64,000 nt of DNA from Phyllobates terribilis (Eukaryota): positions 84,010,001 through 84,074,000 of the forward strand of contig NW_027362767.1 in NCBI RefSeq assembly GCF_046119375.1. The letters are read 5' to 3'. The position numbers were made by a program. Shown in pieces: positions 36,001 to 42,000 of the stretch. How positions within the stretch are numbered: position 1 is the first letter of the stretch; the number at the start of each line of letters is the position of its first letter.

Positions 36001-39000
36001 ATGGATATCAAAATCACAGAAACTGCAGAAAAGAAACAGGGCCAATAGAAAACAATGAAAAATAATACAATGAAGTAAAAAAAAATGTTATAAAGAACAA
36101 TGGCAAAGTGTTTACTCTACAAAAAAAAGGGCGAAACTCAATGTTTCATTTAGGCTATGTTCACACGTTGCTTTTTTGCTGTGTTTTTTTTTTTTTTTTT
36201 AATGCAAATTTTAAGCTGCGTTTTACTGTACCAGTAAAAGCTGTGACATTTCAGAAATCTCATGTAATTTTTTTTTCCTGACTGAATTGGAAAACTGCTG
36301 CGTTTTTGCAGAATGCAGCATGTCACTTCTTTCAGCGTTATTCACCCGTAGAAAGCAATGGGTGCGTGCAAAAAACGCAGGAATCAGGTTTTGCTGCTTT
36401 TTTGGTGCAGAAACCTGAGGTAGTTGGATCATGTTTTTTATGCACTAAACTTCATCAGCAAACACAAAAGACAAATGTACCCTGAGAAAAACGCACCAAA
36501 GAAAAACAAAAACGCAACGTGTGAACACAGCCTTAATCTGTCTGGAACCATGGTTTCCAATTTAGTGACCCATTTTGTTTCTCTCTGGGCAAATACTTTT
36601 TTTGTTGTAATTACCACCATGAACGCGGCAGCGTAAAACATCCGGCCCACGTACCATAAATGATCTCGTATTCTTAGAGTCTACACAATACTGAGTCTCT
36701 GAATGTAGCCAGAGCTCCTGATGGAGTAATAGACTGAAAGGACCACAAAGATTCAGCAGTCCCCTGTAAGGATTCAGTAGTCCCATGTAAGTGCCTTTGG
36801 TCTCAGTCTTATTTGGACCTGCTCCAGCAGGCAGTGACACTGTGCTTGCACACAGTATTTCCCATGACCTAGGACGATCTCCTAATGAGACCATACAATG
36901 GGACTTTGCTCCAGAGCGCCCCCTCACAGGTCTCAGGTGGTCTGGGACACAGTAGGACACCACTAATAGATTTTTGGCCACACATACAGAACATCCAGGA
37001 ATAAGCGCCGCACTGTGAGGACCGTGCTGCAGCGCGCCCTCTTGTGGTAATATGAAAGAATGCAGCGTTCTCGCGATAGTTTCCGTCCCGGAACCAGCTG
37101 GTCCCTGTACGCTTCCTGCGTAGAGCCGCTGTTCCCTCCGGCCTCTGGTTTACGACGTTTGCGTGGCTGAGAGCGCAGCAGATAGCGCCATGTGTGGAGG
37201 CTGCGTGCAGCAGGAGTATCCGGACCGGGTGAGGAGGCGCTGCAGCAGCTGTGGTCGGAGAAGGAGTGATGGCCGCTGTGTGCAGCCCAAGAGAGGGAGG
37301 TGACGACCACCAGGGGGCTCCTCTAGTGCTGTGGTTGTCACTAGCTGGCAGGTTATACATGTCTGCTTCTCATATGGCTCAATGAGCAGTTTCATCACTT
37401 AGACATGTGGCGGTGGTCGTGGTTGGCGATCACCCTCATATTTGGCAGCCGTCGTGGTTTTGCCCATGTGGTTGGCGACAGTCGTGGTTGTCGCTCAGAG
37501 TGGTGCAACAAACATATTATTTTCCCCATGGAAATACTAAAAAACTAGACTCGTCTCATGGACCAGCACTGCACACCTCCCTCCATCAGCATCCTGCTGG
37601 GGCATCTGATCGGCTGCAGCGGTCACATTTCATCCAAGCCAAAGTAATGGTGCTGCAGAGCCAGCAGGTATGTGATTTGCATACACGCAGTCACATACCG
37701 ACTAGATGTGCGCAGCCTCGTCCAATGCAAGTGAATTGAGCAAGGTCGGGCACGTCTAGTCGGAATGTGTCAGGAATATACAAATCGCACACTTGTGGTC
37801 ACGTGCCCCAGCGTTGGCATTGGAGAATCCTGACAGTCTGTGTGCTGTGAGGATTCACAAGTCTGCAGTCACACAGAGTCTGGACAACCCTTTAGTAGTT
37901 AAAATCAGTCAGTAGCGCTGCAAAAAGTAGCTGTGCAGCCCAGCTGTAATGTGTGAGAGAAGCTAAGATTTTTTTCTTCTTTTGAGAAAAAACATCCAAT
38001 AAGGATTCTAAAAGCCGACACACGGACCAAAGAGGAGTCTAATATACTGATCAAAACAAACCACAGACTGGTTTCCACATGATATTCACATGTGATGCCA
38101 AATTTGTGACAGCAGATTTTTTTTTTTTTGTTTCCCAACAAAAAAAAAATCTGCAGTTTGTCTGTGAATGGGACTTGCTGTCAGTGAATTTTTGTGATTT
38201 GGCTATTTAAGAAAAAAAAGGCAGACAGGTCATGGTCTGTGATGGCAAAGGTTGGATTTTTGACAACTGTGGCATTAACTAACATGTGACCACATTAGAT
38301 GCCACATCTCATTATGCTCTTCTTGTCTGAGCACAGACTGGCCATGGGTCTAACACAGGCATGTCCAAAGTCCGGCCCGCGGGCCATTTGCGGCCCGCGG
38401 TCCGGACTAATAAGGCCCCCAGGTATCCAGCAGCATGTACCTTGCGGCCGCTGCCGCTCTCGTCGCCACCGCCGCTCAGTACTCCGGCGCAGGGAGAAGA
38501 GCCGAAATCTCGGACATCGCGAGATTTCGGCTTTCCTTCTCCCTGCGCCGGAGTACTGAGCGGCGGCAACCGGCCAGCCAAGATCTCGCGACGTGCGAGA
38601 TCTCCAGCCCCCAGGGGTTGTAAGACGTTCAGAGGTCAGATAGGCTGAAGACCTCAGCTTAGTTGTGTAAAATTATATAAATAATATATATATATTAAGT
38701 TATATATAAGTCCCTGCGCCACCTTACACCTCCAGAAAGGTTAGGCCAGCAGGGCTCTCACACAAGCTTGTGGTAGCAAGCTGTCATACCCTTCATTAAC
38801 CCCTGACTGCCTGTCACTGTGCTATAATTCCATTATCTGATGTGCGACTGTTGCACAGCTTGCTATTCTCTGCCTGTGTTATAAAGCATATAGCAGTATC
38901 TTATTTTTGCTGTTCCACCCTCTGCGCCTTTTAATCTCTCCCCTTCTGGCCAATTTTTTTAATGGCAACTACAAATAAGAAACGAAAAGTTGACAGTGAG

Positions 39001-42000
39001 GGCCGCCGCTTCCAGGACAAGTGGAAAGTAGAATATTTTTTCACTGAAATAAAGAATCACTGTGTTTGTCTGATATGCCAAGAGACCGTTGCTGTTTATA
39101 AAGAATTTAATGTCAAGCGACACTATCAGACGAGACATAGCACATACGACAAGCTAACAGGGCACGACCGAAGTGAAAAGTATAAGCAACTTGAAGCTGT
39201 TTTATTGTCACAACAGCGATTTTTTACAAGAGCCCGTGAGTCAAATGAAAATGCCACAAAGGCGAGCTATGAGGTGGCAGCGTTAATTGCTAAAAATTGC
39301 AAATCTTTTGCAGAGGGTGACTTTATCAAAGAATGTGTTATGAAAATGGTAGAGAATGTCTGTCCCGAGAAGAAGCAAGAGTTTTCCAACATTTGCCTGG
39401 CTCGTAACACTGTAGCACGGAGAATTGAAGAAATTTCATCGGATATTAAGAGACAGTTAATGTCAAAAGGAGCTGATTTTGACTTCTTTTCAATAGCCTG
39501 TGATGAAAGCACGGACCTATCTGACACGGCTCAGTTGCTGATTTTTTTAAGAGGGGTGGACGATGAAATGAATGTGACTGAAGAGCTACTTGACCTCCAG
39601 AGCCTCAAGGATCAAACAAGAGGGAAAGATTTATTTGATTCTGTTAGTTCTGCCATAGATGACATGAAACTGCCTTGGAACAAAGTTACTGGGATTATTA
39701 CTGATGGGGCACCTGCCATGACTGGTGAACGAAGTGGATTATCAACCCTAATCTGTAACAAGGTGAGCGAAGAAGGAGGCAAAGCTATTAAACTTCATTG
39801 CATCATTCATCAACAAGTTCTCTGTGCTAAACATCTCCAATATGATCATGTTATGAAACCGGTACTAAAGACCATTAATTTTATCCGCTCTAAAGCCCTG
39901 TGCCACCGCCAGTTTAAACAGTTTCTACTGGATATCCAGGCTGAATATGAAGATGTTTCATATCATAACGATGTAAGATGGCTCAGTCGGGGGTCTGCAC
40001 TGCAACGTTTCTACTCTCTCAGAAAGGAAATAGGAGAATTCTTGGAAACAAAGGGACAAACGATGCGAGAACTATCTGATCCAATTTGGCTGGCTGATTT
40101 GGGGTTTCTAGTCGACCTAACAAAGCATCTGAATGTACTGAACATGAATCTTCAGGGCAAAGATGCAGCTGTGAACCAACTTTATTCACACCTCAAAGCC
40201 TTTGGAACAAAGCTGCAACTTTTCCTAAGGCAGTTGTCACAAACACCGCCCAATACCATCCATTTTTCAGCGCTACAGGAAATAATTAACAGTTTTCCAC
40301 ACGATGATATCCATGCGCAAATAAGCAGGTATGCAGCAGACATCACATCTCTGGCTGGGGAGTTTCAACGGCGCTTTCAAGATTTTGCAGCTATTGAAAA
40401 GGAGATCAGCATTTTCTCCTCTCCATTCTCTGTTGACCCCGACAATGCTCCTGATCAGTTGCAGCTCGAGCTCATTGAGCTACATTGTGACAGCGAGTTA
40501 CGCAGTCGTCATCAACAGCTCTCTCTTGTTAACTTTTACCGCCAACTGGATAAGAGCCGGTTTCAAGAGATTCGAACATTGGCTAAGAAAACCCTGAGCT
40601 TGTTTGGCTCAACATATTTGTGTGAGAAGACATTCTCTGTTATGAACTTTAACAAGAACCGCGTGAGGACAAGACTAAGTGACTCTCACCTGCGTGACAT
40701 TTTGCGCATCAAAACCACGGCCATTGAACCAGACCTAGTCTATGTGCTGCAGTCCAGATCCCAGTTTCACCCTTCACATTAGTGCAGGCTAGTTTCTTTT
40801 TTTTAATTGAGATTAATATGTTGTAAAATCTCAATTAATGTCAGTTGGATAGACAGTTATATATTTGAACACATGTATACTTGCTGTTATGTTCCTGTTC
40901 ACATTTTTTGAACTTATAAGTTGACAGACAACCTTACATTACTTTGTGTAATGTACTTTAAAATGTTCCTGAGATACCTCAGTTTCCTGTTTTTATTATA
41001 TTAAAGGGGTTGTCCAAGTTCAGAACCCAGACATACCCCCTTTTTCACCCAGGCAGCCCCCCTGCCATGGGCATCAAAGCATCTCATGCTCCGATGTGCT
41101 CCCTTGCCCTGTGCTATTTACAATGACACACTGCCGGTAGGAGGCTTCACCGGCTCTAATGTGCAGGCTTTAGCGCTGCTCTAGCTGGTTTACTGGTGAT
41201 AAAGCCCGCCCATCAGTGCCGGTGACGTCACTGGGCTTTCTGCCAGCCCCGTGGAGAGCCGGGTATGTCACTAGAACTCCAGAAAATGCCTTTCCTCTGC
41301 GCAATTTAGTGCAGGGCAAAAGTAGGACATTGGAGCATAAACTGCTTCGATGCTCAAGTCGGGGAGGGGCTTCCTGGGTGAGAATGGGGGTATGTCTGGG
41401 TTAACCCCTTTAAGGCAGATTGATTAAACACCTGTTTAGATTTGTCATCCAAGTCACAAAATAAAAAGTATGCCGTTTTCAATAAACTTTGCAAAAAAAG
41501 TTTATTTGCATTCATTTTAATGGTCCAAAGAATGTCAAGCAAAATGATCGGCCCTCGCACATGTTCACTTCATCAAATTTGGCACTCTTAGAAAAAAGTT
41601 TGGACACCCCTGGTCTAACAGAAATATGAGGGGCCTTTAACCTCGGGCCTTTACCCTCAGGCTCAGCCAGGCTCCATGAGCTTTGAAGGAACCAAAGTCA
41701 CCCTGCATGGCTCTAGTCTGTTGTAGGAATACTAGCCAGGCCCACCTTTCTTTATAGGTACTGACAGGGGTGATTATGGCCTGCTTAAGTTTGGGGGTCT
41801 TTTTGAGGGTCTCTTTGGATTGGCTTAAGAGCTGTGAATGATGTTACTTTTGGCTCAATCACTGACTTCACCATATGCAGCAGTGTAGATATTCCTATAT
41901 AGCCCCTCTATGCCCTGATATATGTCTGCTCGCTTATATTTAGGGGAACACGTGTTTGGAGACCGGATCCTTTCTGTTGAATTATGTAAGTTGTGCAAAG

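What the first reader, a model, noticed from the sequence alone, without database searches (positions are those of the whole stretch)
37190..41500. Possible in-frame CHURC1 exon 1-transposase fusion (exon trap)
The intact transposase is sense to CHURC1 in intron 1. An ~80-nt AG-free zone with a pyrimidine tract and a branch-like TTTAAT precedes its ATG. The first AG (38978-38979) falls exactly at the end of codon 6, so it is phase 0, as is the exon 1 donor. Splicing would give MCGGCVQQEYPDR-KRKVDSEG..., keeping all transposase domains under a host promoter, with AATAAA available near 41459 and 41481. This parallels CSB-PGBD3. It would also divert CHURC1 transcripts. The acceptor is a weak AAG lying ~19 nt from the pyrimidine tract.
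Basis: partly seen in the sequence, partly recalled or inferred. Interest (0 to 1): 0.65.

Follow-up and report, generated by a model that had tools for sequence, protein, structure and literature searches.

The report
Intact hAT transposon inside frog CHURC1
A complete, recently inserted cut-and-paste transposon lies in the first intron of a frog's CHURC1 gene, pointing the same way as the gene, and it could in principle be spliced onto the gene's first exon, but the splice site is weak and nothing here shows that this happens.

Summary
CHURC1 exon 1 (37190-37228, 13 codons) ends in phase 0. Intron 1 holds a 606-aa open transposase gene in sense orientation. An 81-nt AG-free, 78% pyrimidine stretch precedes the first AG (38978-38979), which closes codon 6. 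AATAAA lies at 41460 and 41481.

The transposase belongs to a 3,257-bp hAT element (38356-41612) with 14-nt terminal inverted repeats and a perfect 8-bp target duplication. Its family is widely mislabelled "GTF2IRD2-like". The host is an anuran, not human.

The splice-site arrangement is unlikely to sit at the ORF start by chance (about 0.4 such composites per kb). It is still weak: AAG|A, only 47% pyrimidine next to the AG against 68-79% at the three real CHURC1 acceptors, and competing AGs 10 and 17 nt downstream that are out of frame. Phase 0 is weak evidence, since 57 of 134 AGs in the ORF share it.

The host would contribute 13 residues and no domain, so this would be a promoter trap rather than a CSB-PGBD3-like domain fusion. 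No expression data could be reached.

Most likely this is an ordinary young intronic transposon with a latent, unproven exon-trap potential.

The parts
37190..37228 (+). CHURC1 coding exon 1 (13 codons, ends in phase 0); donor GT at 37229
   Evidence: tblastn with frog Churchill proteins covers residues 1-13 at 85-92% identity for 3 of 4 queries
37229..41943 (+). CHURC1 intron 1 (4,715 nt; about 1,450 nt without the element and one target-site copy)
38348..38355 (.). left copy of the 8-bp target-site duplication GTCTAACA
   Evidence: read; ends aligned
38356..41612 (+). hAT DNA transposon, 3,257 bp, sense to CHURC1
   Evidence: TIR pair I12, TSD, transposase ORF
38356..38369 (+). left terminal inverted repeat (14 nt, 12 of 14 complementary to the right one)
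   Evidence: (I12)
38469..38566 (.). near-perfect 44-bp hairpin in the CpG-rich 5' leader of the element
   Evidence: I2, I6; -131.3 kcal/mol, z -13.3; GC 0.65 and CpG o/e 1.05 for 38356-38640
38897..38977 (+). 81-nt AG-free zone; 38897-38961 is 78% pyrimidine; branch-like TTTTAAT at 38929-38935 and 38957-38963
38978..38979 (+). candidate cryptic acceptor AG (AAG|A), end of codon 6, phase 0
38962..40782 (+). transposase ORF, 606 aa, uninterrupted
   Evidence: Pfam; relatives; D181, D248, E555, R339-W340 and C280/H283 lie in columns kept by 15-16 of 16 relatives
39013..39186 (+). Spin-doc-type C2H2 zinc finger (aa 18-75)
   Evidence: PF18658, E 6.8e-11; matched in 16 of 16 aligned members
39014..39015 (+). 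alternative in-frame acceptor-like CAG|G (588 codons open behind it)
39760..39768 (+). donor-like AAG|GTGAGC inside the ORF (8 of 9 to MAG|GTRAGT); 38980-39762 is 783 nt, 261 codons
41001..41413 (.). MITE-like unit with long inverted arms inside the element's 3' region
   Evidence: I1, I8; arms 41024-41111 / 41312-41402, 80%
41460..41486 (+). two AATAAA hexamers (41460-41465, 41481-41486), 126-152 nt before the element's right end
41599..41612 (-). right terminal inverted repeat
   Evidence: (I12)
41613..41620 (.). right copy of the target-site duplication GTCTAACA
41944..42079 (+). CHURC1 exon 2
42375..42445 (+). CHURC1 exon 3
43445..43537 (+). CHURC1 exon 4, coding part with the stop codon

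Best explanation
Shown: a structurally complete autonomous hAT transposon has inserted, sense-oriented, into intron 1 of an anuran CHURC1 gene. It belongs to the Charlie-like group whose copies are routinely mislabelled 'GTF2IRD2-like'.

Inferred: in most transcripts the element is removed with the intron, and CHURC1 is made normally from its four intact coding exons. The transposase, if expressed, comes from the element's own CpG-rich, TATA-bearing 5' leader and ends at the element's own AATAAA signals.

The pyrimidine-rich leader, a branch-like TTTTAAT and the first AG in codon 6 form a real but weak 3' splice site. It could occasionally capture the exon 1 donor. The product would be a host-promoter-driven transposase that lacks its first 6 residues and carries 13 CHURC1 residues. 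I expect this to be absent or a minor isoform. It is step (i) of the known route to host-transposase fusion genes, not an established fusion.
For: Element:
- 14-nt TIRs, 12 of 14 complementary (I12).
- Identical 8-bp TSD.
- 606-aa open ORF with a Spin-doc zinc finger, E 6.8e-11.
- Candidate D, D, E, RW and CxxH positions are kept in 15-16 of 16 relatives.
- The hAT dimerisation domain is matched by 14 of 16 aligned members.
- 998 relatives at E<=1e-5 among 8,000 scored candidates. The best are 74-87% identical and named GTF2IRD2-like or SPIN-DOC-like.
- 16,411 representatives at E<=0.001.
- PMC10641963 (first third read, plus passages) shows that such non-mammalian 'GTF2IRD2' models are hAT transposons with TIRs, TSDs and DDE/RW residues.

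Host gene: all four coding exons are present with GT-AG borders.

Weakness of the acceptor:
- AAG|A, with pyrimidine 0.47 at -22..-4, rank 160 of 322.
- The three real acceptors are TAG or CAG with 0.68-0.79.
- 12 of 322 intronic AGs meet ordinary criteria, and the candidate is not among them.
- Out-of-frame AGs lie 10 and 17 nt downstream.

Native start: 30 of 44 named relatives with an N-terminal match start at their own Met within 3 residues of the window's Met.
Against: - The composite branch site, pyrimidine tract and first AG occurs only once in intron 1, and it sits exactly at the ORF start. This fits the statement that DNA transposons carry acceptors at the start of the transposase ORF (8 of 9 cases in Cosby et al., passages).
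- With a strong upstream tract, the first AG after the branch point can be chosen by linear search even if it is poor (PMC1431707, passages).
- One named gene model (P0080, Varanus komodoensis) joins 271 CHD1L-like residues to a relative at residue 7. Three turtle models (P0003-P0005) begin at residue 7.
- The cryptic site is transcribed about 3 kb before the true exon 2 acceptor.
- No expression data were available either way.
Confidence: 0.62

Rival explanations
1. Working exon trap. A substantial fraction of CHURC1 pre-mRNAs splice 37228 to 38980 and end at the element's poly(A) signals. This expresses a nearly full-length transposase from the CHURC1 promoter and lowers CHURC1 output. The arrangement would be a built-in feature of this hAT lineage.
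For: - In-frame geometry.
- A perfect branch heptamer 45 nt from the AG, followed by 80% pyrimidine.
- The composite is unique in intron 1.
- AATAAA at 41460 and 41481.
- Transposon-borne acceptors at ORF starts in known fusions.
- Model P0080 is joined at residue 7, and models P0003-P0005 start at residue 7.
Against: - AAG|A with a purine-rich 17-nt spacer.
- Competing out-of-frame AGs at +10 and +17 nt.
- In 3 of 3 distant relatives with a native N-terminus (L001-L003, 36-42% identity), no AG-free zone longer than 23 nt spans the ATG.
- A search for longer fused forms found none, which is weak evidence.
- The turtle models may start at residue 7 only because conservation starts there: the mean share identical to the window is 0.45 for residues 1-6 against 0.75 for 7-16.
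- P0014's extension resembles the window's own translated leader, so it is not a splice.
Confidence: 0.2
2. Chimeric transcripts form but not. The options are:
- splicing to the out-of-frame AGs 38988 or 38995, giving early stops and probably decay;
- splicing to CAG|G at 39014, in frame, losing the basic cluster but keeping the zinc finger;
- inclusion of 38980-39762 as a 783-nt in-frame cassette, using the donor-like site at 39763 and then exon 2.
For: - AG positions, frames and codons to stop.
- The rule for closely spaced AGs.
- Donor-like AAG|GTGAGC matches 8 of 9, against 7 of 9 for each of the three CHURC1 donors.
- 783 nt is 261 codons.
Against:
- A 783-nt internal exon is long for vertebrate exon definition (general knowledge).
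- No transcript data.
Confidence: 0.12
3. The ORF is a domesticated host gene (a true GTF2IRD2-like factor) that happens to lie in the intron, not a mobile element.
For: Names given by sources to the closest relatives.
Against: - TIRs and a perfect TSD flank it.
- There is no GTF2I-repeat N-terminus, and the ORF starts at the family's own Met.
- PMC10641963 shows that these names are misannotations.
Confidence: 0.02

Closest known systems
CSB-PGBD3 (piggyBac PGBD3 in intron 5 of primate CSB/ERCC6; PMC2268245, passages read)
   Same: A sense-oriented intact transposase ORF lies in a host intron. An acceptor lies at the ORF start in frame with the upstream donor. The poly(A) signal is inside the element, so the element can act as an alternative 3' terminal exon.
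   Different: - PGBD3 has a pyrimidine-flanked TAG 7 nt upstream of the Met, and a poly(A) site about 130 nt after the stop. Here the AG is an AAG inside codon 6, and the AATAAA signals lie about 680-700 nt after the stop, behind a MITE-like insert.
- CSB gives 465 residues with a domain. CHURC1 would give 13.
- CSB-PGBD3 is expressed, abundant and conserved for over 43 My. None of this is shown here.
- The superfamily differs: piggyBac against hAT.
Host-transposase fusion genes born by alternative splicing (KRABINER and others; Cosby et al., bioRxiv 10.1101/2020.05.07.082677, passages read)
   Same: Step (i), insertion into a host gene, has happened, and a transposon-borne acceptor lies at the ORF start. 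In that study the acceptor came from the transposon in all 9 cases and lay immediately upstream of the ORF in 8 of 9.
   Different: Steps (ii), the fusion transcript, and (iii), selection, are not shown. The host part carries no regulatory domain such as KRAB.
GTF2IRD2 (mammalian fusion of GTF2I repeats with a Charlie8-like hAT transposase) and the 'GTF2IRD2-like' hAT-6-type transposons of fish, frogs and reptiles (PMC10641963)
   Same: The window's protein is 74-87% identical to proteins carrying these names. Like the curated hAT-6-type elements, the element has TIRs, a TSD, an intact ORF and DDE/RW positions.
   Different: It lacks the roughly 400-aa GTF2I-repeat N-terminus of the true gene. 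A direct comparison with hAT-6 or Repbase entries could not be made, because no TE library is on hand and the paper's TIR tables are in closed supplements.

Membership tests
hAT superfamily DNA transposon | 8-bp target-site duplication | tested here: met
   GTCTAACA at 38348-38355 and 41613-41620, 8 of 8 identical
hAT superfamily DNA transposon | short terminal inverted repeats | tested here: met
   14 nt, 12 of 14 complementary, both starting CAGG (I12)
hAT superfamily DNA transposon | transposase with conserved D, D, E and RW / CxxH positions | tested here: met
   D181, D248, R339, W340 and H283 are kept in 16 of 16 aligned relatives, and E555 and C280 in 15 of 16. Their assignment as catalytic residues rests on recall and on the DDE/RW statement in PMC10641963, not on a structure.
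hAT superfamily DNA transposon | C-terminal hAT dimerisation domain (PF05699) | tested here: inconclusive
   The window protein scores E 0.01 and 16.0 bits at aa 517-582, below the cut-off of 21.4. 14 of 16 aligned members match at E<=0.01, the best at 5.2e-07.
hAT superfamily DNA transposon | RNase H-like fold with insertion domain, as in solved hAT transposases | not tested
Sequence and profile searches of PDB chains gave 0 hits at E<=1.
Charlie-like 'GTF2IRD2-like' / hAT-6-type group | close protein similarity to members and a Spin-doc-type N-terminal zinc finger | tested here: met
   74-87% identity to the best named members. PF18658 at E 6.8e-11, matched in 16 of 16 members.
Charlie-like 'GTF2IRD2-like' / hAT-6-type group | TIR and DNA match to reference hAT-6 or Charlie entries | not testable with these tools
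   No TE reference library is on hand, and the supplements of PMC10641963 that hold the TIR tables are closed.
Exon-trap / host-transposase fusion (CSB-PGBD3 type) | transposase ORF in a host intron, sense orientation | tested here: met
Exon-trap / host-transposase fusion (CSB-PGBD3 type) | usable 3' splice site at the ORF start, in frame with the upstream donor | tested here: inconclusive
   In frame, and the composite is non-random. But it is AAG|A, local pyrimidine is 0.47, and competing AGs follow.
Exon-trap / host-transposase fusion (CSB-PGBD3 type) | poly(A) signal downstream of the ORF inside the element | tested here: met
   AATAAA at 41460 and 41481, ATTAAA at 41000 and 41423
Exon-trap / host-transposase fusion (CSB-PGBD3 type) | chimeric transcript and protein observed | not testable with these tools
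Exon-trap / host-transposase fusion (CSB-PGBD3 type) | host part contributes a functional domain | tested here: not met
   Exon 1 gives 13 residues, which are Churchill profile positions 1-13 of 112.
True GTF2IRD2 gene | N-terminal GTF2I repeats fused to the Charlie8-like part, with no transposon ends | tested here: not met
   No such domain was found. TIRs and TSD are present.

The most novel reading that the evidence does not exclude
This hAT lineage carries a built-in 3' splice site that overlaps its first codons: a pyrimidine leader, a branch site, and the AAG of the conserved Lys-Lys. Any sense insertion into an intron would then be expressed from the host promoter as an N-terminally tagged but otherwise complete transposase. 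The CHURC1 copy would be a present-day amphibian example of the first steps of host-transposase fusion birth.
Probability: 0.15. Interest if true: 0.6.

Novelty: new member of a known kind. Interest (0 to 1): 0.3.

Why it matters
If the fusion transcript exists, this locus would show the earliest stage of host-transposase fusion, before any selection, in a non-mammal. It would also show how a transposon borrows a broadly active host promoter at some cost to the host gene.

If the transcript does not exist, the locus is a clean example of two ordinary things. One is an intact hAT copy that annotation pipelines would call "GTF2IRD2-like". The other is a splice-site look-alike that should not be read as a gene fusion.

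Tried and rejected
- PDB by sequence and by profile of 16 relatives: 0 hits, so there was no solved comparator for the catalytic residues.
- Longer fused forms of the N-terminal 150 residues: 56 candidates, none at E<=1e-10. The tool itself calls this weak evidence.
- Other copies of the element in the window: none. Only self-matches of the hairpin and the MITE-like arms appeared.
- Rfam on the whole window and tRNA scan: nothing.
- Relatives' DNA: only the prokaryote genome collection was open. It gave six loci in bacterial MAG records with 36-43% relatives. In the 3 loci with a native N-terminus, the AG-free arrangement is not kept. They are too distant to settle the matter for this subfamily.
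- P0014 (zebrafish model with 23 extra N-terminal residues): first taken as a second junction at residue 6-7. I rejected this because its extension resembles the in-frame translation of the window's own leader.
- Accessions for P0080, P0014 and P0005: the listing of cluster members could not be run.
- Unnamed representatives with N-terminal extensions (for example 970-, 1,061- and 1,184-aa proteins) were not inspected, because their origin is unnamed.
- Literature: 'CHURC1' with 'transposon' gives 1 paper, on iPSC regulomics by its title (listing only). I found no report of a CHURC1-transposase fusion in that search.
- Domesticated-gene reading: rejected on the TIRs and TSD.

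
Full report
**Host and gene**

The window is not taken for human.
- Exon 2 of the gene (41944-42079) matches Pfam Churchill at E 4e-17, profile positions 14-59 of 112.
- Its closest proteins are frog Churchill proteins: Mantella 93%, Aquarana 89%, Gastrophryne 89% and Xenopus tropicalis 84%, among 22 hits.
- tblastn with four frog Churchill proteins places the whole coding region on the + strand. The exon borders come:
  - exon 1, 37190-37228 (residues 1-13, 85-92% identity for 3 of 4 queries; the fourth has a different N-terminus);
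  - exon 2, 41944-42079;
  - exon 3, 42375-42445;
  - exon 4, 43445-43537.
- The window holds no N.

**What lies in intron 1**

- Intron 1 (37229-41943) contains a 3,257-bp element, 38356-41612.
- Its ends are 14-nt inverted repeats, 12 of 14 complementary (I12).
- It is flanked by an identical 8-bp duplication, GTCTAACA.
- It carries one long ORF, 38962-40782, of 606 aa and uninterrupted, behind a 606-nt leader and ahead of an 830-nt 3' region.
- Pfam finds a Spin-doc-type zinc finger (aa 18-75, E 6.8e-11), DUF4371 below its cut-off, and the hAT dimerisation region below its cut-off (E 0.01).
- Of 16 aligned proteins, the window's own included, 14 match the dimerisation domain and all 16 match the zinc finger.
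- Relatives are very many: 998 at E<=1e-5 among 8,000 scored candidates, and 16,411 representatives at E<=0.001.
- The best relatives are 74-87% identical and are called 'GTF2IRD2-like' or 'SPIN-DOC-like zinc-finger' in frogs, a turtle, a monitor lizard and many fishes.
- Hassan and Adelson (PMC10641963; first third read, plus passages) show that such non-mammalian 'GTF2IRD2' models are hAT transposons with TIRs, TSDs, intact ORFs and DDE/RW residues.
- In the window's protein, D181, D248, R339, W340 and H283 sit in columns kept by 16 of 16 aligned relatives, and E555 and C280 by 15 of 16. Calling them catalytic rests on recall and on that paper.
- No solved structure matched by sequence or by profile.
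- No other copy lies in the window.

The element is therefore a structurally complete, apparently young hAT copy, sense to CHURC1.

It holds in every detail.
- The exon 1 donor is CGG|GTGAGG after 13 codons.
- The stretch 38897-38977 has no AG (81 nt), and 38897-38961 is 78% pyrimidine.
- Two perfect YNYURAY heptamers lie in the stretch.
  - The one at 38929 has its branch A 45 nt from the G of the first AG and is followed by 80% pyrimidine.
  - The one at 38957 has its branch A 17 nt from that G and has no tract behind it.
- The first AG, 38978-38979, ends codon 6 (AAG). A splice from 37228 to 38980 would keep the frame for 600 codons.
- AATAAA lies at 41460 and 41481, inside the element, and ATTAAA at 41000 and 41423.

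**Is it more than chance?**

- Long AG-free gaps are not rare. 23 of 4,497 gaps in the window are 81 nt or longer, several of them in C-rich tandem arrays.
- The AG-free property follows largely from the pyrimidine richness, so the two are one observation.
- Phase 0 is weak evidence. 57 of 134 AGs in the ORF are phase 0, and any AAG lysine codon gives one. The ORF has 23 AAG codons.
- The full composite (perfect heptamer, at least 75% pyrimidine in the next 20 nt, first AG 18-50 nt away) occurs 27 times on the + strand and 17 times on the - strand of the window. It occurs only once in intron 1, at the ORF start. By position this is unlikely to be chance, with a post hoc expectation of about 0.02 for a 40-nt target.

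**How good is the acceptor?**

It is poor by ordinary measures.
- It reads AAG|A.
- Pyrimidine content at -22..-4 is 0.47, rank 160 of 322 AGs in the intron. At -42..-4 it is 0.64, rank 10.
- The three real CHURC1 acceptors are TAG|G, CAG|A and CAG|G, with 0.68, 0.68 and 0.79 at -22..-4.
- Twelve of the 322 intronic AGs meet ordinary criteria: at least 0.68 pyrimidine, C or T at -3, and at least 12 nt free of AG upstream. They include the true exon 2 acceptor but not the candidate. The other 11 give only 2-49 codons.
- Gooding et al. [quoted passage not shown] They also describe competition between AGs less than 12 nt apart.
  - The next AG here, at 38988, is 10 nt on, is also an AAG, and is out of frame (13 codons to a stop).
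  - 38995 (CAG) is out of frame with an immediate stop.
  - 38999 and 39014 (CAG|G) are in frame.
- A donor-like AAG|GTGAGC at 39763 matches the donor consensus at 8 of 9 positions, against 7 of 9 for each CHURC1 donor. It would close a 783-nt cassette of 261 codons.

**Evidence from relatives**

Of 66 named relatives, 44 have a match to residues 1-70.
- 30 start at their own Met within 3 residues of the window's Met.
- 3 have an upstream extension that keeps that Met.
- 6 begin further in, at residues 26-47.
- 5 begin their homologous part at residue 6-7 without the Met.

The five in the last group are:
- three turtle models that simply start at residue 7;
- one monitor-lizard model (P0080) in which 271 CHD1L-like residues run straight into residue 7;
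- one zebrafish model (P0014).

I discount three points.
- P0014's extension resembles the in-frame translation of the window's own leader.
- The turtle models may start at residue 7 because conservation starts there. The mean share identical to the window is 0.45 for residues 1-6 against 0.75 for residues 7-16.
- All of these are gene models of unknown evidence level, and their accessions could not be obtained.

A search for longer fused forms found none (weak evidence).

Only the prokaryote genome collection was open for DNA of relatives. It returned six loci in bacterial MAG records, with 36-43% identity and GC 0.36-0.46.
- Their best named matches are bryozoan, axolotl and fish proteins.
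- In 5 of 6 the frame is not open over the full length. I did not count the breaks.
- I take them for eukaryotic DNA binned into MAGs, not for human.
- In the 3 loci with a native N-terminus, the AG-free zone at the ATG is 12-23 nt, so the arrangement is not kept at that distance.

Exon 1 was covered only through tblastn with orthologues. The joined exon 1-transposase product was not built or searched. What such a search could have added is whether an identical chimera is already annotated.

**Mechanism**

- Shown: the insertion, its completeness, the intact host exons, and the in-frame geometry.
- Inferred: the element's own promoter lies in its leader. The stretch 38356-38640 has GC 0.65 and CpG o/e 1.05, and a TATA-like AT run lies at about 38660-38710. 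Its own 3' end lies at the AATAAA pair.
- Inferred: most CHURC1 transcripts splice 37228 to 41944 and discard the element.
- A minority may be trapped. The product would replace the first 6 transposase residues by 13 CHURC1 residues. The last of those is Arg, so the basic cluster stays four residues long. The zinc finger, the catalytic positions and the C-terminal domain would all be kept.
- Because the host gives no domain, this would be a promoter trap that benefits the element, not a new host protein.

**Comparison with what is known**

- The concept is established.
  - CSB-PGBD3 is a natural exon trap with an acceptor 7 nt upstream of the Met and a poly(A) site about 130 nt after the stop (PMC2268245, passages).
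  - In 8 of 9 host-transposase fusions examined, a transposon-borne acceptor immediately upstream of the ORF was used (Cosby et al., passages).
- This locus meets the positional criteria. It fails the domain criterion and lacks all expression and conservation evidence.
- One literature search for CHURC1 with 'transposon' gave 1 unrelated paper (listing only).
- Supplements of PMC10641963 that list TIRs of curated hAT-6-type elements are closed. They might allow a direct family assignment.

**Verdict**

- Most likely this is an ordinary young intronic hAT copy with a latent exon-trap potential (0.62).
- A working exon trap has about 0.2.
- Interest is 0.3.
- Novelty: a new member of a known kind.

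Noticed in passing
window 38469-38566: There is a near-perfect 44-bp hairpin in the element's 5' subterminal leader: perfect 31-nt arms plus inner arms, RNA fold -131.3 kcal/mol, z -13.3. A third partial copy of an arm lies at 38576-38604. It could be a subterminal repeat array or a small palindromic insert.
   Followed up: partly
window 41001-41413: A MITE-like unit with roughly 90-nt inverted arms (41024-41111 / 41312-41402, 80%) sits in the transposon's 3' region, between the stop codon and the AATAAA pair. Without other copies I cannot tell whether it is a nested insertion or part of the family.
   Followed up: partly
window 51781-59892: This is probably the virus-like stretch the operators mention: an LTR retroelement. 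Direct repeats start at 51781 and 58971 (98-99% identical over the stretches reported). It has a gag-like ORF (53248-54120, weak PNMA match) and a 1,381-codon pol ORF (54260-58405) with protease, RT, RNase H and integrase domains. It lies downstream of CHURC1. I described it only and did not examine it for breaks.
   Followed up: partly
window 49981-51798 and 59897-61812: The ORFs on either side of the LTR element carry an RT domain (50725-51798) and an RNase H domain (59897-60865). The LTR element therefore seems nested in an older retroelement. The ORF 49981-50682 matches a LAP2alpha domain.
   Followed up: no
window 45153-47306 (+) and 62722-63927 (-): There are further retroelement ORFs: a 717-aa ORF with an RT domain, and on the minus strand a 401-aa ORF with an integrase core, a Tf2-type SH3 domain and a chromodomain.
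   Followed up: no
window 7208-8804, 12031-12502, 13837-15071: Large tandem arrays are present: a 58-nt unit repeated about 20 times, and C-rich units of 21-30 nt repeated up to about 40 times. The latter explain the strongly negative GC skew at 12-16 kb, the AG-free runs of up to 856 nt, and the long ORFs there that have no Pfam match.
   Followed up: partly
transposase relatives: Proteins 74-87% identical to this frog copy occur in a turtle, a monitor lizard, many teleosts, a skate, a lamprey and a sea spider. Relatives around 46% identical occur in a bryozoan and an axolotl. The patchy, high-identity spread looks like horizontal transfer of the family.
   Followed up: no
L001-L006 (MAG records of Ekhidna, Rubritalea and a Bacteroidetes bacterium): Six loci in bacterial metagenome-assembled genomes hold 36-43% relatives of this eukaryotic transposase in low-GC DNA, mostly with interrupted frames. 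They are most likely host DNA binned into the MAGs.
   Followed up: partly
gene models P0062, P0080, P0084, P0026, P0050: Several annotated proteins in other species splice host-like residues (STK24-like kinase, CHD1L-like helicase and others) onto pieces of this transposase at various internal positions. Two of them join near residues 90-95. These may be annotation chimeras or real exonisations.
   Followed up: partly
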